Shown here in pieces: positions 50,786-58,929 of a stretch of 64,000 nucleotides of DNA. Location: NCBI GenBank assembly GCA_964632175.1, contig CAZWBJ010000002.1, forward strand, positions 13,878 through 77,877. The letters run 5' to 3'. Both the position numbers and the translations under genes were made by a program. The notes beneath the pieces were generated by a model. The model worked only from the letters and a program-made list of their open reading frames with translations, made no database searches and had not been told where the DNA came from. The first letter of the stretch is position 1, and each line of letters starts with the position of its first letter. Source of the stretch: Candidatus Hadarchaeota archaeon. GTDB taxonomy: Archaea; Hadarchaeota; Hadarchaeia; Hadarchaeales; JAWBSP01.

Positions 50786-51597
50786 AGATCGGAGTGCTGG
50801 GGCCGAGGGGGACCTACAGCGAACTCGCGGCCAGAGCGCGGTACGGGGAGCAGCACGAGTTCATCTACTACCCCACCATCACCGAGGTCGGGAAAGGAGT
50901 GGAGAGAGGAGAGGTGGAGGTGGGGGTGGTCCCCTTGGAGAGCTTGCGGGAGGGGAGCGTGGGGGAAACCCTCGACCTGCTGGCCTGGGGAAACCTGAAA
51001 ATAGGGGAGGAGATAGTCCTACCCGTTTCCGTCTCCCTCCTAGGAATCCCTGGCACGAAACTGGAGGAAATCTCCCAAATCCTTTCACATCCTCAGATCT
51101 TCGCCCAGTGTCGTGACTTTCTCCTGAAGTTCCCGAGGGTGGAGCTGGTGGAGGTGAGCAGCACCGCTAAGGCCGCAGAGCAGGTTGCCAAGGCCGGCAG
51201 ACCGCAGATAGCATGCCTCGGACCAAAAAGCCTGGCCCCAATATACCAGCTCGAGTCCCTCCTAGACGACATCCAGGGGGAGATAAACCTCACAAGGTTC
51301 CTGGTGCTCGCCCACGCCGACAGTCCGCCCACGGGATATGACAAAACCTCCATCGTCTTTTACACTGCCGAGGACAGGCCGGGAATTCTCTGGGAGATCC
51401 TAGGGGAATTTGCCTCCAGAAAGATAAACCTCACCAAGATCGAATCGCGGCCCTCAAAGAGAGCGCTTGGAGACTACCTCTTCTTCTTGGATTTCGAAGG
51501 GCACCGGGAAGAGGAGAGAGCTAAGGAGGCGCTGGAGGGTGTGAGAAGGAAGACCGCCATGCTCAAGATCTTGGGCTCCTACCCCAGGAGGTTCTGA
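50782..51597 (+). CDS. pheA: Prephenate dehydratase (PDT plus ACT domain)
   Basis: TRF motif region and ESRP ACT signature; 271 aa. Confidence 0.85.
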   Translation: MKIGVLGPRGTYSELAARARYGEQHEFIYYPTITEVGKGVERGEVEVGVVPLESLREGSVGETLDLLAWGNLKIGEEIVLPVSVSLLGIPGTKLEEISQILSHPQIFAQCRDFLLKFPRVELVEVSSTAKAAEQVAKAGRPQIACLGPKSLAPIYQLESLLDDIQGEINLTRFLVLAHADSPPTGYDKTSIVFYTAEDRPGILWEILGEFASRKINLTKIESRPSKRALGDYLFFLDFEGHREEERAKEALEGVRRKTAMLKILGSYPRRF

Positions 51598-52352
51598 TGG
51601 AAGAAACTGAGAAGAAACTGCTTGACTTCATAAGAAAACAGGTTGAAGCTGCTGGGGCAAAGGGGGTGGTGGTCGGGATGAGCGGGGGATTGGATTCATC
51701 AGTGGTGGCCGCTCTTTGCGCTAGAGCTATCGGGCCTGAGAGGGTGCTGGGGTTATGCCTGCCAGACAAAGTTACAGACCCCTCAGACGTGGAGGATGCA
51801 GAAAACCTTGCTCAAGAGCTTGGGATAAGGTTCAAGAAGATAGAAATCACTCCCATAATCGAGGCCCTGCACAGGTGTTTGCCAGACTTCGATCCCAGTG
51901 CCAGACTGCCGCTGGCAAACCTGAAGGCGCGGGTTAGGATGATCATCCTTTACTACTACGCCAACCTGCACGGTTATTTGGTGGCGGGTACGGGCAACCG
52001 AAGTGAGCTGAGAGCAGGTTACTTCACCAAATGGGGGGACGGAGCGGCGGACTTCCTGCCCTTGGGGTCGCTCTACAAAACACAGGTTAGGGAACTTGCC
52101 AGATACCTCGACATCCCGCGCACCATTCTGGAAAAAGTCCCCACCGCCGGGCTATGGCCGGGGCAAACCGATGAGGGGGAGCTCGGGATCTCCTACGAGA
52201 AACTGGATAAGATATACATGGGACTGGACGCCGGAAAATCGCCGGAGGACGTCGCGAAGATAGCAGGGGTGGAGGTGGGGCGAGTGAGGGAGTTCATGGA
52301 GAGGGAAAGGAAAACCCAGCACAAAAGGCTTCCACCTCCTCGTCCAGAGTAA
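51597..52352 (+). CDS. nadE: NH3-dependent NAD+ synthetase
   Basis: SGGLDSS PP-loop; 251 aa. Confidence 0.9.
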   Translation: MEETEKKLLDFIRKQVEAAGAKGVVVGMSGGLDSSVVAALCARAIGPERVLGLCLPDKVTDPSDVEDAENLAQELGIRFKKIEITPIIEALHRCLPDFDPSARLPLANLKARVRMIILYYYANLHGYLVAGTGNRSELRAGYFTKWGDGAADFLPLGSLYKTQVRELARYLDIPRTILEKVPTAGLWPGQTDEGELGISYEKLDKIYMGLDAGKSPEDVAKIAGVEVGRVREFMERERKTQHKRLPPPRPE

Positions 52353-52384: not shown

Positions 52385-52519
52385 TTAGTACTCCACCGCC
52401 CCGCCGTTGTAGTCTATTCCCATCTCGCTCAAGGGCTTCCCGCAGTGCTTGCAGCGGAGCCTGCCCTCCACCAAGACGCAAGCAACCCGAAGCGGGAGCC
52501 CGCAGTTGGGACAGTTCAT
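52385..52519 (-). CDS. 44-aa zinc-ribbon micro-protein immediately downstream of nrdD
   Basis: MNCPNCGLPLRVACVLVEGRLRCKHCGKPLSEMGIDYNGGAVEY, with CxxC-x15-CxxC. GGGGGTGA lies 5 nt upstream of the ATG. It starts 4 nt after the nrdD stop. The 118-aa six-frame ORF is an upstream extension. Confidence 0.4.
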   Translation of the reverse strand: MNCPNCGLPLRVACVLVEGRLRCKHCGKPLSEMGIDYNGGAVEY

Positions 52520-52523
52520 CTTC

Positions 52524-55500
52524 TCACCCCCTCGTGAAGCTTTTCCTCTGCCTGAACTCCTCCTGCTTTCCCTCGTTCCAGTTCCGAACGGGCCTGAAGT
52601 AGCCCACCACCCTAGAGTAGACCTCGGTCTCATGACCGCAGGAGGGGCAAAGTGGATAGTTTCCCGGGAGGTATCCGTGATTTGGGCAAATCGAATATGT
52701 TGGAGTAATGGTGTAGTAGGGTAGCCTGGAGCGCTCGGCAATCTTCCTCACCAGATTCTTACAGCTCTCGCCGTCCTCCAGGCTCTCCCCAAGGAAGATG
52801 TGAAAGACCGTTCCCCCCGTGTAAAGAGACTGCAGAGGCTCTTGGTGTTTGATAGCCTCCCAAAGATCAAGGTCCGCATCCACGGGAAGCAGGGTGGAGT
52901 TGGTGTAATAAGGGACGTCTTTTCCGGCGGTGATGATATCGGGATACATTCGCTTGTCGATCCTTGCGAGCCTGTAGCTGGTCCCCTCGGCGGGGGTGGC
53001 CTCCAAGTTGTAAAGATGGCCCGTCTCCGCCTGGAATTCCCTGAGCTTTTTGAGCATGAACCTCAGCGTTCGTATAGCAAAGTTCCTTCCTTCCTGCTCC
53101 GCGATGCTGCAACCAAGCAGGTTGAGGCAAGCCTCGTTCATCCCGACCAACCCGATGGTGGAGAAGTGATAATCCAAGGTGCCCAGATATCGTTTGGTGT
53201 AGGGGAGGAGGCCCGAATTCATTTTCCTCGTGACCTCCTTCCTCTTTATCTCGAGAGATATCTTCGCTAAGTTCATGAGGCGCTCCAGATTTTCAAAGAA
53301 CTCGTCCTCGTTCTCCGACAAGTATCCTATTCTAGGCATGTTGATCGTGACCACGCCCACGGAACCCGTTTTATCACCGGCGCCGAAAAGTCCCCCCGTG
53401 ATGTTCCTCCGCAACTCCCTCAAATCGAGCCGGAGATGGCAACACATTGACCTGACATCGCTGGGCCTGAGGTCGGAATTGATGAAGTTCTGGAAGTAGG
53501 GAAGTCCATATTTGGCAGTCATCTCGAAAAGGAGGGAGGAAACCCCGTCGTCCCACTTAAAGTCCCTAGTTAGACCAAAGGTGGGGATGGGAAAAGTGAA
53601 GGGCCTCCCTTCGGCATCCCCTTCCGTCATCACCTCGATGAAGGCCCTGTTGATCAGTTCCACCTCCTCCTCGAACTCCTCGTACGTCCTGTCCAGTGGC
53701 TTGCCCCCCACGATGGCGGGAGTTCTCGCTAGGTCATCGGGCACGGTAAGGCTGAGGGAAATATTGGTGAAGGGGGTCTGCCCTCCCCAGCGAGAAGAAA
53801 TATTCAGGTTGTAGACAAATTGCTGGAGCTTCTGCTTGACTTCCTTGTAGGTCAGCCCGTCCACCTTAACAAAGGGTGCAAGCAGGACATCCACAGCATT
53901 AAAGGCCTGTGCCCCTGCCCATTCGTTTTGAAGCGTTCCCACGAAGTTCGCCATCTGCAGGAGGGCTGTGTCGAGGTGCCGGGGAGGGGTGGAGGAGACC
54001 TTTCCCGGAACCCCATTGAACCCCTCCAGCAGGAGCTGCTGCAGCGACCAGCCCGCACAGTTACCGGACCAGACAAGCTTACCGTTCCTCTCCACGAGCA
54101 GGGTTCCGTTGGGCACGGTCAGATCGTAAACTTTTCCCCTGTACGATACAACTTCCGGTAAGCCGCGGAATTCAGGGGTGAGCTGGTGGTTCTCCACATA
54201 GACGACGTAACCGGTTTTCCTCTTCCTTATCGTACCGCATCTGCCAGTCTTCACCAAGCACTCGACCACATCTTCCGCGAGCCTCTTTGAGGAAGTGTAA
54301 TACGCGATGAGCCTGTCCCCCTTCACCCTCCCGTCCCCTTTAAACAGCTCCCCTAGGAAGGCCGAGAGGAGCTTCGGGTTCAGACGCTTCACTTCCGGGG
54401 GGATGAATTTCTCCCTGCTTCTACCCAGCCTCTTGACGTAGTCAAATACCTGTTTTGAGTAGAAGGTTACGTGAGATTTGGTTATCACAGGTTCAAAGCC
54501 CAACTGCCTGATTATTCTGGCAATCCGGCGCTGGTTACGCTTGTTGACCTGCGAGATGGAAATCCGGTATCCTCCTTTTGAAACGTCGCAGTTACCCTCC
54601 GCTATGTACCACCCCAGGAACCGCACAAAGGTCTCGGTGGGTGGGTCAACGTTTTTGAAGGTCCCTCCCTGCCCGTCAGAATGTACTTCCGGGAGACGCA
54701 ACTCTCCCTCCCCTTCCCAAACGGCATCCTTTCTGAACTCTATCACCCTCCTGTTAGAAAGTTCCGAAGCGGTGACAAACTTCCACTCTGGATCACAGTC
54801 TCCCGGTGCCCTCGGCTTCCTTCCCCGATAAATCCATTCGCTCACAGTCCCCTCGGGGATGCCGATCTCCTTGGAGATCCTGCGGGAGCCCCAACCCCTC
54901 TCCCTGTGTAACTTTAGTGCCTGGAAGTACTTCTGCAGCCTTGTTTCCATCTCTCCGCGCTTCTGCATCCTCCTGCGGATCTTTGTGCGGTTTGGCGGGA
55001 TTCTAACAAGCATGCGATGCTCGGGCGTCACAAGCAGATCGATGCTCCTGTTCCTCCAGTGATACATCGGACCGTCCCAGTCGAAAACTTGCTTGGCTAT
55101 GGGATGCTGAAACTCCAGCCTGCCCGTCTTTAGGTTAAGAGTTGCAACCCTATCGCTTGGTGTCACATCCTTGAAGTATTTGAACCCTTCCTCCGTCAGA
55201 ACCCTAGTTTCCTCATCGAAGCAATAGCCACACAGACCCATTCCCAGATCATGGATGTGGAAGTCGCCGGACACGTGAGCGGCCGCCACCTCAGGTGGGT
55301 AAACCTTTTCGAGAGTGTACCTTGCAATCACCGAGGTTCCAATGTGGAAGAGGAGGCCGGAAAGCGAGTAGCCCATGTTGCTGTTCTCCTTCACCCTCCA
55401 GTCGCTCAGGCTGAGGTAGTCATCCACGAGCTTCCTGACCTGTAGCTCGGCCCTCAGCTTCCTGAGCTCCTCCCTCTGCTTCCGGTAGATGATGAAGGCT

Positions 55501-55763
55501 TTGGCCGTCTTGGCGTGACCACGCTCGATCAGGATCTTCTCGATGGCATCTTGGATCTGCTCCACGTGCGGCGGGTTTTCCGAACCGAAGCCCTGTTTTA
55601 CGAGATAGTTCTCGACCTCCACAGCCAGTCTCTCGGCCCTCCGCTTGTCCCTCCCCCCCACCTCCTGGGCCGCCTTCCAGATGGCGTTGACGATCCTTTC
55701 CCTCTCGTAGGCGACGACCGTTCCATCCCTTTTGATCACCTTGGTCAGAACCATCTCAAACAC
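52524..55763 (-). CDS. nrdD: Anaerobic ribonucleoside-triphosphate reductase (class III RNR) interrupted by a 388-aa intein
   Basis: N-terminal ATP-cone, a C-terminal Zn ribbon CPNHG...CPSCG, and the glycyl-radical motif RVVGYF. The extein is 691 aa; the intein spans aa 181-568. Confidence 0.9.
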   Translation of the reverse strand: MFEMVLTKVIKRDGTVVAYERERIVNAIWKAAQEVGGRDKRRAERLAVEVENYLVKQGFGSENPPHVEQIQDAIEKILIERGHAKTAKAFIIYRKQREELRKLRAELQVRKLVDDYLSLSDWRVKENSNMGYSLSGLLFHIGTSVIARYTLEKVYPPEVAAAHVSGDFHIHDLGMGLCGYCFDEETRVLTEEGFKYFKDVTPSDRVATLNLKTGRLEFQHPIAKQVFDWDGPMYHWRNRSIDLLVTPEHRMLVRIPPNRTKIRRRMQKRGEMETRLQKYFQALKLHRERGWGSRRISKEIGIPEGTVSEWIYRGRKPRAPGDCDPEWKFVTASELSNRRVIEFRKDAVWEGEGELRLPEVHSDGQGGTFKNVDPPTETFVRFLGWYIAEGNCDVSKGGYRISISQVNKRNQRRIARIIRQLGFEPVITKSHVTFYSKQVFDYVKRLGRSREKFIPPEVKRLNPKLLSAFLGELFKGDGRVKGDRLIAYYTSSKRLAEDVVECLVKTGRCGTIRKRKTGYVVYVENHQLTPEFRGLPEVVSYRGKVYDLTVPNGTLLVERNGKLVWSGNCAGWSLQQLLLEGFNGVPGKVSSTPPRHLDTALLQMANFVGTLQNEWAGAQAFNAVDVLLAPFVKVDGLTYKEVKQKLQQFVYNLNISSRWGGQTPFTNISLSLTVPDDLARTPAIVGGKPLDRTYEEFEEEVELINRAFIEVMTEGDAEGRPFTFPIPTFGLTRDFKWDDGVSSLLFEMTAKYGLPYFQNFINSDLRPSDVRSMCCHLRLDLRELRRNITGGLFGAGDKTGSVGVVTINMPRIGYLSENEDEFFENLERLMNLAKISLEIKRKEVTRKMNSGLLPYTKRYLGTLDYHFSTIGLVGMNEACLNLLGCSIAEQEGRNFAIRTLRFMLKKLREFQAETGHLYNLEATPAEGTSYRLARIDKRMYPDIITAGKDVPYYTNSTLLPVDADLDLWEAIKHQEPLQSLYTGGTVFHIFLGESLEDGESCKNLVRKIAERSRLPYYTITPTYSICPNHGYLPGNYPLCPSCGHETEVYSRVVGYFRPVRNWNEGKQEEFRQRKSFTRG
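54060..55223 (-). mobile_element. Intein in nrdD with a LAGLIDADG homing endonuclease domain
   Basis: Starts with Cys (CFDEETRVLTEEGF, block A). LAGLIDADG-like motifs FLGWYIAEGN and LSAFLGELFKGDGRV. Ends in ...LVWSGN followed by the +1 Cys (CAGWSL). The penultimate residue is Gly, not the usual His. Confidence 0.8.
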
Positions 55764-55793: not shown

Positions 55794-56501
55794 TCATGCT
55801 CTCACCCTGCAGACTCCAAAGTGGGGGGAGATCTGCTTCCTCAGCTCATGGAGGAACTCCAGTGGATAGGGCTTGACCGAGGAAAAGGTGGGATCAACCA
55901 ACCTCGGCTCTGGTCTGAACTGTTGCAAGTAGTATCTCTGGGCCCCCTTCAGCTCCTGCGCTATTTGGAGGATGTCCTCTCTGGAGACCAGCCCCGGCAC
56001 CACGGTCGTCCTGAACTCGTAGGGGATGGAGGAGGACATGAGGATTTCCGCCGCCGTCCTCACCTCCCCGACCCCGTCACCTTGGGAAAAAAGGCGGTAC
56101 TTCTCGGGGGTGAGCGGTGCTTTCACATCCAAGGCCACGTAGTCCACCAAGCCCCCACCCACGAGCTTTTGCAGCAGGAGGGGATTCGAGCCGTTGGTGT
56201 CCAGCTTCACCGCGTACCCGAACCCCTTAATCCACTCAAGGAGCTGGGGAAGATCTTGGTGGATGGTGGGCTCCCCCCCGGAAATCACAACCCCGTCCAG
56301 CCAGTCCTTCCTAGAGCGGAAGAACCTATCGAGGTCCTCTTGGCAGGGAGAGGGCAGTGAGGAGGGGTTGAGGACTAAGTCGGCGTTGTAGCAGTAGGGA
56401 CACCTGAAGTTGCATCCCCCCAAGAAAAGTACCGAGGCTATCTTCCCCGGAAAGTCGATTAGGGAAGTCTTGAGAAACCCCTTTATGTTTTCAAAGATCA
56501 T
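55794..56501 (-). CDS. nrdG: Anaerobic ribonucleotide reductase activating protein (radical SAM)
   Basis: CNFRCPYC radical-SAM cluster motif; 235 aa. Confidence 0.85.
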   Translation of the reverse strand: MIFENIKGFLKTSLIDFPGKIASVLFLGGCNFRCPYCYNADLVLNPSSLPSPCQEDLDRFFRSRKDWLDGVVISGGEPTIHQDLPQLLEWIKGFGYAVKLDTNGSNPLLLQKLVGGGLVDYVALDVKAPLTPEKYRLFSQGDGVGEVRTAAEILMSSSIPYEFRTTVVPGLVSREDILQIAQELKGAQRYYLQQFRPEPRLVDPTFSSVKPYPLEFLHELRKQISPHFGVCRVRA

Positions 56502-56640: not shown

Positions 56641-57333
56641 ATGGAGGAAGTGAGGAGGGAGAAAGCCCCCGAGATCCTGGCTGCTCTGCTCTCGAGACCC
56701 AGGGGGGTGAGGGAACTATGGCAGGCAGTGGGGGGGAGTCCCAACACCGTCGAGCTGAGGGTGAAGGAGCTCCAGAGGGCGGGCTTGATCCAAGAGGGAC
56801 AATCGGAGACTTGGCCCTATAAAAAAGTCCTTTCCCTCACGGACAAGGGAAGGAGGGTGGCGGAGATGCTCAGACTCCAGACCTCCCTAACGGGACCCCT
56901 AAGGAGACCCACGGAGGAGGAACTCAAGGAAAGGGGAAAATGGCTCCTCTCCCTTCTTCACGTGCTGGGTGGGAGCCTGGAGGGCGCGGTCAGACTCCAG
57001 AAGCTCGTCTTCCTCATGAAGAAGGAACTCGGAATGGAGGTGCCCTACCAGCATGTGCCCTTCCAGCATGGACCCTTCTGCGGGGAGATCTACGAGGACC
57101 TGATGGATTTGGAAAGCGCCGGCTGGGTGAGCGTGGTGAGGGAGTTGGCCGAGCCCGTTCTGGTCTCGCTGACGGAAGAGGGGAAGAGGGTCGCCGAAGA
57201 GACCTTCCACTCCCTATCCAAGGAAGCCAAGGGGAACTGGGAGAAGCTGAAAGAGTTCAACCGGATGCCACTCTCGCAGCTGCTGGAGTACGTCTACACG
57301 CGCTACCCGAAGGAAAGCAGGATGCTGGGCTAG
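56641..57333 (+). CDS. Winged-helix DNA-binding domain fused to a DUF4065 (Panacea-like) domain; putative transcription regulator
   Basis: N-terminal wHTH (TVELRVKELQRAGLI). The C-terminal region LQKLVFLMKKELG...FQHGPFCGEIYEDL matches the DUF4065 consensus KLQKLLYFA...WKYGPVVPEVYEEL. Confidence 0.55.
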   Translation: MEEVRREKAPEILAALLSRPRGVRELWQAVGGSPNTVELRVKELQRAGLIQEGQSETWPYKKVLSLTDKGRRVAEMLRLQTSLTGPLRRPTEEELKERGKWLLSLLHVLGGSLEGAVRLQKLVFLMKKELGMEVPYQHVPFQHGPFCGEIYEDLMDLESAGWVSVVRELAEPVLVSLTEEGKRVAEETFHSLSKEAKGNWEKLKEFNRMPLSQLLEYVYTRYPKESRMLG

Positions 57334-57953
57334 GGCCTGCCCGTCTCCCTCATCTTCTTGAGGTCCTCAAACAGGGGCGGGGCCACTTGGTAAACTAGGT
57401 CAAACATCTTTTGGGCCATCCTCCTTATTTCCCACTGGGATTCCTCATGCAGCCTCAGCCTGAAGAAGTGCCTGAGTTCGCGGGCATTCACCGTCCAGTA
57501 CATCTTGGTCTCGGTGGCGTTCGTCAGCACGTACCGGGCGTCCTCCTTCCTCACCCCGGCTGCCACCAGCCCCCTGTAGAGCTCGAAGGACTTCCTCACG
57601 AACTCCTCCATCTTCTCCCTCTGCTCCCGCCTCACCTCCTCGGGGAGGTAATCGAGCGGGGGCAGCACGTACCTCCCCTTCCCCTCATCCACCCTCCTCT
57701 GACTGCGCTGGGTGAAGGAGCAGACGCGGTGCCTGACCCACTGGTGACTGAGGGCCCTCGAGATCCCCTCCACCCTGAAGGTGAAGGAGGCGTGCTCCAA
57801 GATGCTCTCGTGACCCAGCCTGATGATTTTCTGCACGAAGGCCCCGTAATCCTCTTTTTCCTCCTTGTCGTAGGAGACCCCCGCCGCCCTCCCGCAGACC
57901 TCCACCGGGTTAGGCGTGTAGGCCACCAGCTCAACCTTCAACTCGGCTTCCAT
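57330..57953 (-). CDS. thyX: Flavin-dependent thymidylate synthase
   Basis: ThyX motif SHQWVRHRVCSFTQRSQR (RHR...S); 207 aa. Confidence 0.9.
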   Translation of the reverse strand: MEAELKVELVAYTPNPVEVCGRAAGVSYDKEEKEDYGAFVQKIIRLGHESILEHASFTFRVEGISRALSHQWVRHRVCSFTQRSQRRVDEGKGRYVLPPLDYLPEEVRREQREKMEEFVRKSFELYRGLVAAGVRKEDARYVLTNATETKMYWTVNARELRHFFRLRLHEESQWEIRRMAQKMFDLVYQVAPPLFEDLKKMRETGRP

Positions 57954-58929
57954 GCCTCCTCACCTCAAGCAGCTTCTTCTTGTAGGACCCCGTATCTTCT
58001 TTCACCCAGTCCTCCACATCGAGTTTCAGAATGGATCCGTCGGCCCTCTTTATCACCACCCTCTTTATCCCGGCGTTGATGAGCACCCTTTTGCACCGGT
58101 CGCAGGGCCTCCCCTCCACCAAGCTCCCGTCCCTATAGTCCTGCCCGTAGAGGTAGAGGGTGCCACCTAGAACGCTCGCCCCGTGCCTCGCCGCGTTGAT
58201 GATGCAGTTCTCCTCCGCGTGGACACCGATGCACCACTCGTATCCCGTGTAGTGCGGAACCTTCATCTCCTCCTTAAGACAGCCGACCTCCATGCAGTTC
58301 ACCACCCCCCTCGCGGGGCCGTTGTACCCCGTGGAGACCACTACGTCCTCCTTCACCACTATCGCCCCGAACTGGCGCCGGATGCAGGGTGACCTCTGGG
58401 CCACGGACTTGGCTATCCCCAAGTAATACTCATCCTTGCTGGGGCGAGTGTCCATCTTCACCTCCCCCACGATTACCTTTCCCTCCGGAGTTATCTCCCC
58501 CCGCCTCACCCTCTCGGAAGAGATGGGAAGCCCGTCCTCCGCCAGCACCCAAGGGATCACCACGATATCGAGCGGCTTCAGCCCCCTCTCCCCCCGCAGC
58601 TTGTTTATCTCTCGGGCGGCTGGCTCCGTTTCCTCGCTCACCACGATGGCCTCCAGCTCCGGGTCCTCGGGCGCTGGCCCAAAAGGATCCTCCAAGGTGA
58701 AGACGATGGCCCTTTCCTCCCAGCCCCTCGAGCGCAGAAAGTCCCTGACGTTCTGGGTCCTGAGTTCCAGAGATTGGGTGACCCCCTTCCTGCTGGCAAG
58801 CTTCTCGCCCGAGATACCCAAGAGAACCTTCTCCCCGAGCTCGAAGGCCTTGGAGAGGAGGGCTTGGTGCCCCCGGTGGAAGTGCTCAAAGGTGCCACCC
58901 ACCGCCACCTTTCTGTACTTAGCCTGCAA
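57931..58929 (-). CDS. Continuous ORF fusing an N-terminal archaeal phosphopantetheine adenylyltransferase (PPAT) to a C-terminal dCMP deaminase
   Basis: aa 1-158: VAVGGTFEHFHRGH, IVVSEETEP, ISSERVRRGEI (archaeal PPAT, COG1019). aa 159-332: MDTRPSKDEYY...HAEENCIINAARHG...PCDRCKRVLINAGIKRV (dCMP deaminase Zn motifs). There is no stop codon between the two parts. Confidence 0.75.
   Translation of the reverse strand: MQAKYRKVAVGGTFEHFHRGHQALLSKAFELGEKVLLGISGEKLASRKGVTQSLELRTQNVRDFLRSRGWEERAIVFTLEDPFGPAPEDPELEAIVVSEETEPAAREINKLRGERGLKPLDIVVIPWVLAEDGLPISSERVRRGEITPEGKVIVGEVKMDTRPSKDEYYLGIAKSVAQRSPCIRRQFGAIVVKEDVVVSTGYNGPARGVVNCMEVGCLKEEMKVPHYTGYEWCIGVHAEENCIINAARHGASVLGGTLYLYGQDYRDGSLVEGRPCDRCKRVLINAGIKRVVIKRADGSILKLDVEDWVKEDTGSYKKKLLEVRRHGSRVEG

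What the first reader, a model, noticed from the sequence alone, without database searches (positions are those of the whole stretch)
54060..55223. NrdD intein with LAGLIDADG endonuclease and a non-canonical C-terminal Gly-Asn
A 388-aa insertion interrupts the class III RNR between the extein residues LGMGLCGY and CAGWSL. It begins with the block A Cys (CFDEETRVLT) and carries two LAGLIDADG-like motifs. It ends in SGN rather than the usual His-Asn. Loss of the penultimate His occurs in a minority of inteins and affects the splicing mechanism. The endonuclease motifs look intact, with Asp/Glu at the catalytic positions.
Basis: partly seen in the sequence, partly recalled or inferred. Interest (0 to 1): 0.5.

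Follow-up and report, generated by a model that had tools for sequence, protein, structure and literature searches.

The report
Homing intein inside anaerobic ribonucleotide reductase
The class III ribonucleotide reductase gene of this (probably Hadarchaeales) archaeon is interrupted by a real 388-residue self-splicing intein with a homing endonuclease; its odd Gly-Asn ending is the normal signature of a large intein family, one member of which has been shown to splice, so the finding is correct but ordinary.

Summary
Window 54060-55223 encodes a 388-aa insertion (CFDEETRVLT...LVWSGN) in nrdD, between ...LGMGLCGY and CAGWSL.

- **Insertion point:** intein-free orthologues (90% and 84% identical) and a syntenic intein-free locus break precisely at these ends.
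- **Fold:** an AlphaFold model (pLDDT 93.8) matches intein homing endonucleases (TliVMA, PI-SceI, PI-PfuI) and I-DmoI.
- **Splicing residues present:** Cys1, block B Thr66/His69, block F Asp367, Asn388 and +1 Cys.
- **Endonuclease residues present:** Glu209, Asp297, Lys272.
- **+1 Cys:** it is the universally conserved RNR active-site cysteine (T. maritima Cys125).
- **Gly-Asn ending:** this is not an individual loss. 250 of 282 related inteins have penultimate Gly.
- **Tested relative:** the family includes the mycobacteriophage Bethlehem RDF intein, which splices fully and is slowed by Gly-to-His.
- **Block F His:** the window intein also lacks this His (Gly373) and has Arg70 at B:11. The two covary in the family, echoing the Ssp DnaE mechanism.

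Verdict: new member of a known kind; modest interest.

The parts
52524..55754 (-). nrdD precursor ORF (1076 aa from ATG 55754; an upstream in-frame GTG at 55763 gives 1079 aa), class III ribonucleoside-triphosphate reductase interrupted by the intein
   Evidence: NF006126 ribonucleoside triphosphate reductase, 1027 bits; Pfam NRDD 1.7e-184; ATP-cone; the exact 1076-aa product is on 7 public contigs
55224..55754 (-). N-extein (177 aa: ATP-cone plus the start of the catalytic barrel, ending ...HIHDLGMGLCGY; -1 Tyr corresponds to tmNrdD Tyr124)
54060..55223 (-). Intein, 388 aa, class 1, with a nested LAGLIDADG endonuclease and an HTH insert
55185..55223 (-). Splicing block A (CFDEETRVLTEEG); Cys1 nucleophile
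   Evidence: Cys1 in 279/282 family members
55002..55049 (-). Splicing block B (RSIDLLVTPEHRMLVR): Thr66 (B:7), His69 (B:10), Arg70 (B:11)
   Evidence: T 269/282, H 281/282, R 133/282
54819..54989 (-). Three-helix insert with a helix-turn-helix (core SRRISKEIGIPEGTVSEWIY, aa 113-132), placed after block B where PI-SceI carries its DNA-recognition region
   Evidence: Pfam Sigma70_r4_2 E 1.1e-5 (25.4 bits, cutoff 25.7) and HTH_23 E 6e-4; model helices 79-109, 113-120, 124-132; at this position only in the NrdD site-a inteins WIN, P0100 and P0001
54189..54638 (-). LAGLIDADG homing endonuclease domain (aa 196-345)
   Evidence: Pfam LAGLIDADG_3, 2 stretches; Foldseek I-DmoI TM 0.6 normalised to the target
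54588..54629 (-). LAGLIDADG motif 1 (FVRFLGWYIAEGNC), catalytic Glu209
   Evidence: position 209 is E 47 / D 12 of 61, Gly210 60/61
54396..54416 (-). Endonuclease block D (REKFIPP), Lys272 and Pro275
   Evidence: K 59/61, P 61/61
54324..54368 (-). LAGLIDADG motif 2 (LSAFLGELFKGDGRV), catalytic Asp297
   Evidence: D 59/61, G298 60/61
54093..54149 (-). Splicing block F (VSYRGKVYDLTVPNGTLLV): Asp367 (F:4); Gly373 where about half the family has His
   Evidence: F:4 C 203 / D 67; position 373 H 135 / G 108
54060..54092 (-). Splicing block G (ERNGKLVWSGN): Gly387 in place of the penultimate His, terminal Asn388
52524..54059 (-). C-extein (511 aa plus stop); the first codon (54057-54059) is the +1 Cys, the conserved RNR reductive-half-reaction cysteine (tmNrdD Cys125, T4 Cys79, E. 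coli Cys175)
   Evidence: alignment to 4coi; PMC4493059
55794..56501 (-). nrdG activase (radical SAM) directly upstream; context only
   Evidence: Pfam Fer4_12/Radical_SAM on the same gene in L001 and L003

Best explanation
This is a bona fide class 1 intein with a nested two-motif LAGLIDADG homing endonuclease. It sits in nrdD immediately before the conserved active-site cysteine.

Proposed splicing pathway (inferred, not tested here):
1. After translation, Cys1 undergoes an N-S acyl shift, assisted by Thr66/His69 (block B) and Asp367 (F:4).
2. The thioester is passed to the +1 Cys.
3. Asn388 cyclises to release the intein.
4. An S-N shift restores ...GY-CAGW..., the active site of a 688-aa NrdD.

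Asn cyclisation happens without the penultimate His (Gly387) and without the block F His (Gly373). This is the normal state of the intein's family. The most likely helper is Arg70 at B:11, as in the Ssp DnaE intein.

The excised intein is a site-specific endonuclease (Glu209, Asp297, Lys272). An added helix-turn-helix module probably extends its DNA contacts. It should cut intein-free nrdD alleles around ...GGCTAC|TGTGC... and copy itself in by repair (homing).

What is shown: position, fold, residue conservation, absence from orthologues, and family membership. What is inferred: actual splicing, actual cleavage, and the Arg70 role (roughly 0.4 on its own).
For: Exact in-frame insertion absent from orthologues of 90% and 84% identity and from the syntenic locus L001.

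AF2 model with pLDDT 93.8 and pTM 0.85. Foldseek top hits are TliVMA, PhoVMA, PI-TkoII, PI-SceI and PI-PfuI inteins (E 5e-18 to 2e-10), and I-DmoI for the nuclease domain.

Over 282 family inteins, all essential positions are conserved and present in the window copy: C1 279, T66 269, H69 281, F:4 C/D 270, N388 278. LAGLIDADG acidic residues and the block D Lys are conserved.

Gly at G:6 in 250/282. Of 226 copies in the 150 best representatives, 198 end in GN.

The Bethlehem RDF intein (ends LTGN|S, PNG in block F, Arg at B:11) matches the family HMM at E 1.7e-35. It splices to completion, whereas G316H accumulates precursor (PMC5050341).

Gly373 co-occurs with Arg70 in 79/108 inteins, against 31/135 when position 373 is His (Fisher p 4.7e-15). 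In Ssp DnaE, Arg B:11 assists Asn cyclisation, and about 5% of functional inteins lack His G:6 (PMC4031507).

The same intein sits at the same site in P0100 (58% id) and P0001 but is absent from the closest relatives. Intein identity to P0001 (50-59%) exceeds N-extein identity (43%). That fits mobility.

The identical product occurs on 7 contigs.
Against: No experiment was done on this protein. It lacks both His residues usually invoked for Asn cyclisation.

Standard splicing-domain models barely see it: Hint_2 E 0.04 and TIGR01445 E 0.016, both below cutoff, with no match to a C-terminal splicing model.

The Arg70 proposal rests on a covariation that is not corrected for phylogeny and on analogy. 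I could not read model coordinates to measure the Arg70-Asn388 distance.

GC3 of the intein (0.68) differs only modestly from the exteins (0.72-0.79), so there is no sign of a recent arrival. The endonuclease could be inactive despite intact motifs.
Confidence: 0.85

Rival explanations
1. Splicing-competent intein whose endonuclease is no longer active. It would be a fixed, vertically inherited passenger late in the homing cycle, and the HTH would be a relic.
For: No near-identical copies at other alleles were found. The intein is 58% identical to the P0100 copy while the exteins are 70% identical, so it diverges faster than the host gene. GC3 is close to host values.
Against: Glu209, Asp297, Gly210/298, Lys272 and Pro275 are all intact and family-conserved. 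The endonuclease domain is modelled at pLDDT above 95. Distribution among close NrdD relatives is patchy, and the intein is more conserved than the extein against P0001. The relative in phage Bethlehem was toxic to E. coli until its nuclease region was mutated (PMC5050341).
Confidence: 0.2
2. Conditional (redox-gated) splicing. Cys(-3)-Gly-Tyr-Cys1 forms a CXXC disulfide across the N-terminal junction, or Cys1 pairs with Cys+1. The oxygen-sensitive NrdD would then mature only under reducing, anoxic conditions, as in the P. abyssi MoaA intein.
For: The window reads L-C-G-Y|C, so a CXXC motif spans the junction, and the +1 residue is also Cys. Precedent exists for an N-extein Cys-Cys1 redox trap in an oxygen-labile enzyme (PMC10663303).
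Against: Cys at -3 is not conserved among carriers of this intein: P0100 has Thr, P0001 Ala, P0009 Val. It also occurs in 7/116 intein-free alleles, so it does not look like a co-adapted feature. There is no experimental or structural evidence of a disulfide.
Confidence: 0.1
3. Degenerate intein that no longer splices, leaving nrdD a pseudogene or inactive precursor.
For: It lacks both the penultimate His and the block F His. It scores only weakly against curated intein splicing-domain models.
Against: The 1076-codon ORF is intact. All nucleophiles and block B residues are present. The same two His-less positions occur in the splicing-proficient Bethlehem RDF intein. The GN terminus is under family-wide conservation. 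The insertion splits the catalytic site of an enzyme encoded next to its activase, so a non-splicing copy would be selected against.
Confidence: 0.04
4. The 388 aa are a lineage-specific host domain of NrdD, not an intein.
For: None beyond the continuous reading frame.
Against: 111 of the 120 best NrdD hits have normal length, and 116 read ...GYCAGW... without an insert at this site. The same element is found in dozens of unrelated host proteins. It has the Hint plus LAGLIDADG fold.
Confidence: 0.01

Closest known systems
Mycobacteriophage Bethlehem RDF (gp51 in Kelley et al. 2016; annotated gp52 phosphoesterase in AY500153) intein
   Same: Class 1, Cys1, TxxH with Arg at B:11, 'VPNG' in block F (no F-block His), penultimate Gly plus terminal Asn, nested LAGLIDADG endonuclease. 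It matches the HMM built from the window intein's family at E 1.7e-35. Experimentally it splices to completion, and Gly-to-His slows it (PMC5050341).
   Different: Only about 24-28% identical over the aligned stretches. 317 aa, with no HTH insert. Cys rather than Asp at F:4, and Ser rather than Cys at +1. The host protein is a phage metallophosphoesterase-type RDF, not NrdD.
Ssp/Npu DnaE split inteins
   Same: Functional class 1 inteins without a penultimate His. In Ssp DnaE, Arg at B:11 is proposed to assist Asn cyclisation (PMC4031507). The window intein has Arg70 at B:11.
   Different: They are naturally split mini-inteins without an endonuclease. Their penultimate residue is Ser (from memory), they are cyanobacterial, and they are not detectably related beyond the Hint fold.
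Archaeal and yeast LAGLIDADG inteins with solved structures (TliVMA 7qsu, PhoVMA 7qst, PI-TkoII 2cw7, PI-SceI 1vde, PI-PfuI 1dq3)
   Same: The overall architecture is shared: a Hint splicing domain split by a DNA-recognition region and a two-motif LAGLIDADG nuclease. Foldseek E 5e-18 to 2e-10, TM about 0.5-0.6.
   Different: 11-15% sequence identity in the structural alignments. As I recall, these inteins end in His-Asn; that was not checked here. None has the HTH insert after block B.
M. jannaschii RNA polymerase A' intein (Chen, Benner & Perler 2000, cited in PMC4031507 and PMC5050341)
   Same: An archaeal intein reported to splice without a penultimate His. That the residue is Gly is from memory, not checked here.
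   Different: Different host protein. Relationship to this family was not tested.
Other NrdD inteins (Clostridium phage c-st NrdD intein, PMC3653736; metagenomic Hadarchaeota-like NrdD inteins found here)
   Same: Inteins are already known in class III RNR genes. P0100, P0001 and P0009 carry the same intein at the same site.
   Different: The c-st insertion site was not compared. P0066 and P0084 carry an unrelated His-Asn intein at the same site (BLASTP E 0.2-0.7 to the window intein).

Membership tests
Class 1 intein (Hint splicing domain) | In-frame insertion absent from orthologous host proteins, at a conserved host site | tested here: met
   P0063 and P0064 read ...SGY|CAGWSL...; L001 DNA alignment breaks at 55222/54061. 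The +1 Cys is tmNrdD Cys125.
Class 1 intein (Hint splicing domain) | Cys/Ser at position 1 and Cys/Ser/Thr at +1 | tested here: met
   Cys1 and Cys+1
Class 1 intein (Hint splicing domain) | Block B TxxH | tested here: met
   Thr66-Pro-Glu-His69
Class 1 intein (Hint splicing domain) | Block F position 4 Asp (or Cys) | tested here: met
   Asp367; family C 203 / D 67
Class 1 intein (Hint splicing domain) | C-terminal Asn (G:7) | tested here: met
   Asn388; 278/282 in the family
Class 1 intein (Hint splicing domain) | Penultimate His (G:6). Typical but not obligatory: about 5% of functional inteins lack it (PMC4031507). | tested here: not met
   Gly387; Gly in 250/282 family members
Class 1 intein (Hint splicing domain) | Block F His (F:13). 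Common but not obligatory. | tested here: not met
   Gly373 at the position where 135/282 have His. The equivalence to F:13 is inferred from the motif and the hairpin register of the model.
Class 1 intein (Hint splicing domain) | Hint fold | tested here: met
   AF2 pLDDT 93.8; Foldseek hits to solved inteins
Class 1 intein (Hint splicing domain) | Protein splicing activity | not testable with these tools
   Needs expression of the precursor
LAGLIDADG homing endonuclease (monomeric, two motifs) | Two LAGLIDADG helices, each ending in an acidic residue followed by Gly | tested here: met
   LGWYIAEG (Glu209) and LGELFKGDG (Asp297); Pfam LAGLIDADG_3 E 2.4e-12, 2 stretches
LAGLIDADG homing endonuclease (monomeric, two motifs) | LAGLIDADG endonuclease fold | tested here: met
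   I-DmoI matches, TM about 0.6 normalised to the target, rmsd 3.4-3.7 over about 167 columns
LAGLIDADG homing endonuclease (monomeric, two motifs) | Site-specific cleavage of the intein-free allele | not testable with these tools
   The candidate target from L001 is given in the next steps
Class 3 intein (WCT motif, no position-1 nucleophile) | Trp B:12, Cys F:4, Thr G:5 and a non-nucleophilic residue 1 | tested here: not met
   The window has Cys1, Met71 at B:12, Asp367 at F:4 and Ser386 at G:5. Many family members do have Cys at F:4, but always together with Cys1.
Class 2 intein (KlbA type) | Ala (non-nucleophile) at position 1 | tested here: not met
   Cys1
GN-terminus LAGLIDADG intein clade (operational; includes the Bethlehem RDF intein) | Full-length similarity plus a C-terminal R-[RE]-N-G-K-x-x-[WFIV]-x-G-N signature | tested here: met
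   The window ends ERNGKLVWSGN. 62 hits by word search and 877 representatives at E<=1e-30. 198/226 copies end in GN. Bethlehem RDF matches the family HMM at E 1.7e-35.

The most novel reading that the evidence does not exclude
The intein acts as a redox or anoxia gate for an oxygen-sensitive glycyl-radical enzyme. The Cys(-3)-Gly-Tyr-Cys1 CXXC motif across the N-terminal junction (or a Cys1-Cys+1 pair) traps the precursor as a disulfide in oxidising conditions. NrdD's catalytic cysteine would then be assembled only when the cell is reduced. A still more speculative variant is that the excised, HTH-bearing intein also binds host DNA as a regulator.
Probability: 0.1. Interest if true: 0.55.

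Novelty: new member of a known kind. Interest (0 to 1): 0.27.

Why it matters
For the genome, the nrdD gene is not broken. The 1076-aa product should mature into a normal 688-aa class III RNR plus a free homing endonuclease.

More generally:
- The Gly-Asn ending marks a very large, mostly metagenomic intein family that curated splicing-domain HMMs barely detect. The hits here were below cutoff, so such inteins are likely under-annotated.
- The covariation of a lost block F His with Arg at B:11 gives a concrete, testable idea for how these inteins cyclise Asn without either histidine.
- These NrdDs, the nearest named ones being Hadarchaeales, show seven intein insertion sites, and two unrelated inteins use the same active-site cysteine. 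That is a neat natural example of intein targeting of catalytic sites.
- The family offers thermophile-derived, His-independent inteins and LAGLIDADG nucleases with add-on DNA-binding modules for protein and genome engineering.

Tried and rejected
- **Plus-strand reading of the interval.** It is full of stops. The overlapping + strand ORFs are by-products of the high G+C content.
- **Genome-contig scans.** So I have no organism-labelled genomic copy. Taxonomy rests on the names of the best NrdD hits: Hadarchaeales / Hadesarchaea.
- **Organism markers.** No tRNA and no Rfam family were found in the window.
- **Exact-product lookup.** It failed with the GTG start and succeeded with the ATG start.
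- **Phage c-st NrdD intein.** I fetched the first 50 kb of the genome to compare insertion sites, but nrdD is not in that stretch, so I dropped it.
- **Phage collection.** It holds only distant relatives: Lak megaphage at 24.7% over the full length, the rest partial. No phage vector was identified.
- **Class 3 and class 2 mechanisms.** Considered because most family members have Cys at F:4, and rejected for this copy (Cys1 present, Asp at F:4, no WCT).
- **Redox trap via Cys(-3).** Considered and kept only as a low-probability reading, because Cys(-3) is not conserved in other carriers.
- **Arg379.** It is family-invariant (266/282) and was considered as the His substitute. It sits at the hairpin turn, at the opposite end of the last strand from Asn388 in the model's strand register. 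I therefore favour Arg70. I could not access model coordinates to measure distances.
- **dN/dS.** Not attempted, because the closest intein copy is only 58% identical and synonymous sites would be saturated.
Full report
**1. What is in the sequence**

The interval 54060-55223 translated on the + strand is full of stop codons. The feature is on the minus strand. ORF 52524..55763(-) encodes a 1079-aa protein from a GTG. Public gene calls use the ATG at 55754, giving 1076 aa, and that exact product is on seven metagenome contigs (the GTG version is not on record).

Residues 181-568 of the 1079-aa translation map exactly to window 55223 down to 54060. They run from CFDEETRVLT to ...ERNGKLVWSGN. 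The flanks are ...HIHDLGMGLCGY and CAGWSLQQLL....

Pfam and NCBIfam identify the host as a class III ribonucleoside-triphosphate reductase:
- NRDD E 1.7e-184, matched in two stretches.
- NF006126 at 1027 bits.
- An N-terminal ATP-cone.
- Inside the insert, LAGLIDADG_3 with two stretches (E 2.4e-12) and a helix-turn-helix (Sigma70_r4_2 E 1.1e-5, HTH_23 E 6e-4) at intein residues 98-136.

The radical-SAM activase nrdG lies directly upstream at 55794-56501(-).

**2. It is an insertion, at exactly these ends**

A search with the spliced extein returned thousands of NrdDs. Of the best 120, 111 have normal length (681-719 aa). The two closest are P0063 (90% identity) and P0064 (84%, named Candidatus Hadarchaeales by NCBI). 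They read ...GFGISGY|CAGWSLEQ... with no gap.

P0063's contig (L001) is syntenic with the window: nrdG, nrdD, a 44-aa ORF, NAD synthase, prephenate dehydratase and so on. BLASTN of L001 against the window gives two blocks, ending at window 55222 and resuming at 54061.

The junction aligns without a gap to T. maritima NrdD ...LMPY-C125-FAYTL. [quoted passage not shown] The preceding Tyr124 is conserved in subclass NrdDh (PMC4493059). So the intein uses the enzyme's catalytic cysteine as its +1 nucleophile, and the precursor cannot be active until it splices.

**3. It is an intein with a homing endonuclease**

The intein alone finds 62 relatives by word search. An exhaustive phmmer search of 1.84 billion representatives finds 9692 at E<=1e-3 and 877 at E<=1e-30. 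Each is embedded in an unrelated host protein, including:
- dCTP deaminase
- ThyX
- NAD synthase
- PAPS reductase
- metallophosphatases
- epimerases
- papain-like peptidases
- RNA polymerase beta
- a terminase
- NrdD itself at other sites

Each is flanked by Cys at position 1 and Cys/Ser/Thr at +1.

An AlphaFold2 model built on 53 of these sequences has mean pLDDT 93.8 and pTM 0.85. Foldseek against the PDB returns intein homing endonucleases first: TliVMA, PhoVMA, PI-TkoII, PI-SceI and PI-PfuI, at E 5e-18 to 2e-10. I-DmoI follows for the nuclease domain.

Across 282 family inteins aligned to a family HMM, the essential positions are nearly invariant, and all are present in the window copy:

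| Position | Family count | Window residue |
|---|---|---|
| Cys1 | 279 | Cys |
| Thr B:7 | 269 | Thr66 |
| His B:10 | 281 | His69 |
| F:4 | Cys 203 / Asp 67 | Asp367 |
| Asn G:7 | 278 | Asn388 |

The two LAGLIDADG motifs are FVRFLGWYIAEGNC and LSAFLGELFKGDGRV. They carry Glu209 and Asp297. The family has E/D at 59/61 and D at 59/61, each followed by Gly at 60/61. The block D Lys272 and Pro275 are 59/61 and 61/61.

The family HMM finds no other copy in any ORF of the window.

**4. The Gly-Asn ending**

Penultimate Gly is not a loss in this copy. It is the family's signature.
- Every one of about 60 first-round relatives ends in [GS]-N, apart from one HN, one LN and one copy cut off at the end of its contig. 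Typically the ending is V-R-R-N-G-K-x-x-W-[SC]-G-N.
- In the 150 best representatives, 198 of 226 intein copies end in GN, 11 in SN and only 5 in HN.
- Overall, Gly occupies G:6 in 250 of 282.

The literature held here says that about 5% of functional inteins have a non-His G:6. It also says that neither His G:6 nor His F:13 is required in all inteins (PMC4031507).

Most tellingly, the mycobacteriophage Bethlehem RDF intein belongs to the same family. I recovered it from AY500153 (gp52 phosphoesterase, Cys95-Asn411, 317 aa...VPNGRFFIEDGGKIHLTGN|S). It scores E 1.7e-35 against the family HMM. Its Gly316 is exactly the residue mutated by Kelley et al.: the parental intein splices to completion, and G316H accumulates precursor (PMC5050341). 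A Gly-Asn intein of this family is therefore experimentally proficient.

**5. A second missing histidine and a candidate substitute**

In the model, the last two strands (374-379 and 382-387) form a hairpin. That places position 373 next to Asn388 (the register is my inference).
- At position 373 the family has His in 135 inteins and Gly in 108. The window and Bethlehem RDF both have Gly.
- Position 70, directly after the block B His (B:11), is Arg in the window and in Bethlehem RDF.
- Arg70 accompanies Gly373 in 79/108 inteins, but His373 in only 31/135. The odds ratio is 9.1 and Fisher p is 4.7e-15.
- This test is not corrected for shared ancestry, so it is a lead rather than a proof.

It matches the Ssp DnaE intein, which lacks the penultimate His and in which Arg B:11 is proposed to reorient and assist Asn cyclisation (PMC4031507). 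I propose Arg70 as the helper for step 3 here, at about 0.4 confidence.

The family-invariant Arg379 (266/282) sits at the hairpin turn, far from the terminus by strand register. I consider it structural or DNA-binding instead.

**6. The helix-turn-helix insert**

Between block B and the nuclease, the model shows a long helix (79-109, lower pLDDT) followed by helices 113-120 and 124-132, the HTH picked up by Pfam.

In the family alignment this ~55-60-aa insert at this position is found only in the NrdD site-a inteins: the window, P0100 and P0001. Most members have 10-20 residues there.

Other family members carry other add-ons:
- P0003 has a similar HTH a little further on.
- The dCTP-deaminase inteins have an ~80-aa insert with a winged-helix look at a second position, between intein residues 172 and 198.
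- P0001 and P0009 have a Cys4 zinc ribbon at that second position.
- P0009 has a C2H2-like finger in place of the HTH.

The position corresponds to the DNA-recognition region of PI-SceI (established knowledge). The likeliest role is extra DNA contact for the endonuclease. This is inference.

**7. Mobility**

The same intein occupies the same site in three other proteins:
- P0100: 58% intein identity and 70% extein identity, in a syntenic locus L002.
- P0001: Hadarchaeales, 50-59% intein identity.
- The fragment P0009.

It is absent from the window's closest relatives. Against P0001 the intein is more conserved than the N-extein, which is only 43% identical. That hints at horizontal homing rather than pure vertical descent.

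Intein GC3 is 0.68, against 0.79 and 0.72 for the exteins, a modest difference.

The predicted target in the intein-free allele L001 is ...GGTATCAGTGGCTAC|TGTGCAGGGTGGTCA....

**8. Context among NrdDs**

Among the best NrdD hits, nine carry inteins. Together with P0037 they define seven insertion sites:

| Site (N-side flank → +1 side) | Carrier | Intein ending |
|---|---|---|
| GY → CAGW | this one | GN |
| FIG → SLQNEW | P0098 | GN |
| WGGQ → TPFTN | P0096, P0099 | GN |
| RPF → TFPIP | P0088 | HN |
| VRSM → CCHLRL | P0141 | HN |
| TG → S[IV]GVV | P0037 | GN |
| YTGG → TVHH | P0101 | HN |

P0066 and P0084 carry a different, canonical ...VVHN / ...CVHN intein at the same GY|C site. Its similarity to the window intein is negligible (BLASTP E 0.2-0.7). 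Inteins in nrdD are already reported, for example in Clostridium phage c-st (PMC3653736).

**9. Speculative reading**

The window has Cys at -3, giving C-G-Y-C1, a CXXC motif across the N-terminal junction, and the +1 residue is also Cys. A redox trap of this kind regulates the P. abyssi MoaA intein in an oxygen-labile enzyme (PMC10663303).

However, -3 is Thr, Ala or Val in the other carriers. It is Cys in 7 of 116 intein-free alleles. It does not look co-adapted. I give this reading about 0.1.

**10. Verdict**

Both the observation and the interpretation are correct. The element is a new member of a known kind: a class 1 LAGLIDADG intein of the Gly-Asn family, which has an experimentally characterised relative.

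- The family-wide nature of the GN terminus.
- The additional loss of the block F His, with covarying Arg B:11.
- The HTH add-on.
- The use of the catalytic Cys as +1.
- The intein-hotspot character of these NrdDs.

Curated intein splicing-domain models score it below their cutoffs (Hint_2 E 0.04; TIGR01445 E 0.016). This family is therefore probably under-annotated. Interest is modest.

Noticed in passing
window 55754-55763 (-): The mechanical ORF starts at a GTG (55763). The orthologue P0063 and the public gene call start at the ATG three codons downstream (55754). The 1076-aa product is on record on 7 contigs; the 1079-aa one is not.
   Followed up: yes
window 52385-52519 (-): A 44-aa ORF (MNCPNCGLPLRVACVLVEGRLRCKHCGKPLSEMGIDYNGGAVEY, a Cys4 zinc ribbon) starts 5 nt after the nrdD stop. 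It is also called at the same place in the syntenic loci L001 and L003 (faint Zn_ribbon_CLPX_N hit in L003). Its function is unknown; it may be an NrdD-associated partner.
   Followed up: partly
P0037, P0066, P0084, P0088, P0096, P0098, P0099, P0101, P0141 (NrdD homologues): NrdD of this Hadarchaeota-like lineage is an intein hotspot with seven different insertion sites. Four are occupied by GN-family inteins and three by HN-ending inteins, and one further HN lineage shares site a. One site (VRSM|CCHLRL) is at the Cys-Cys motif that aligns with the T. maritima SCCR motif.
   Followed up: partly
window 51597-52352 (+) NAD synthase; 57330-57953 (-) ThyX: Both genes are intein-free here. Their homologues in other metagenomes (P0046, P0051, P0058 and P0062 for NAD synthase; P0031, P0033, P0034, P0042, P0048 and P0055-57 for ThyX) carry inteins of the same GN family.
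   Followed up: partly
P0183-P0330, e.g. P0190 (2602 aa, 9 matched stretches), P0210 (3693 aa): Many representative proteins carry several copies of GN-family inteins (up to 3-4 complete copies each). The host proteins and organisms were not identified.
   Followed up: no
family alignment, intein position 367 (F:4): About 72% of family members (203/282) have Cys at block F:4 together with Cys1. Cys at F:4 is a hallmark of class 3 inteins, but these retain the position-1 nucleophile. The window copy has Asp.
   Followed up: partly
window 56641-57333 (+): A 230-aa protein with an N-terminal winged-helix (faint HxlR hit in L003) is encoded divergently between nrdG and thyX. It is a possible local regulator of the nucleotide-metabolism cluster.
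   Followed up: no
window 57931-58929 (-): A 332-aa ORF appears to fuse an N-terminal cytidylyltransferase-like segment (GGTFEHFHRGH, read as phosphopantetheine adenylyltransferase-like from the motif only) to a C-terminal dCMP/cytidine deaminase zinc motif (HAEENC...PCDRCK).
   Followed up: no
P0009, P0001: Site-a NrdD inteins differ in their accessory modules. P0009 replaces the HTH with a C2H2-like finger. Both P0009 and P0001 add a Cys4 zinc ribbon before the nuclease domain. This suggests modular swapping of DNA-binding add-ons.
   Followed up: partly
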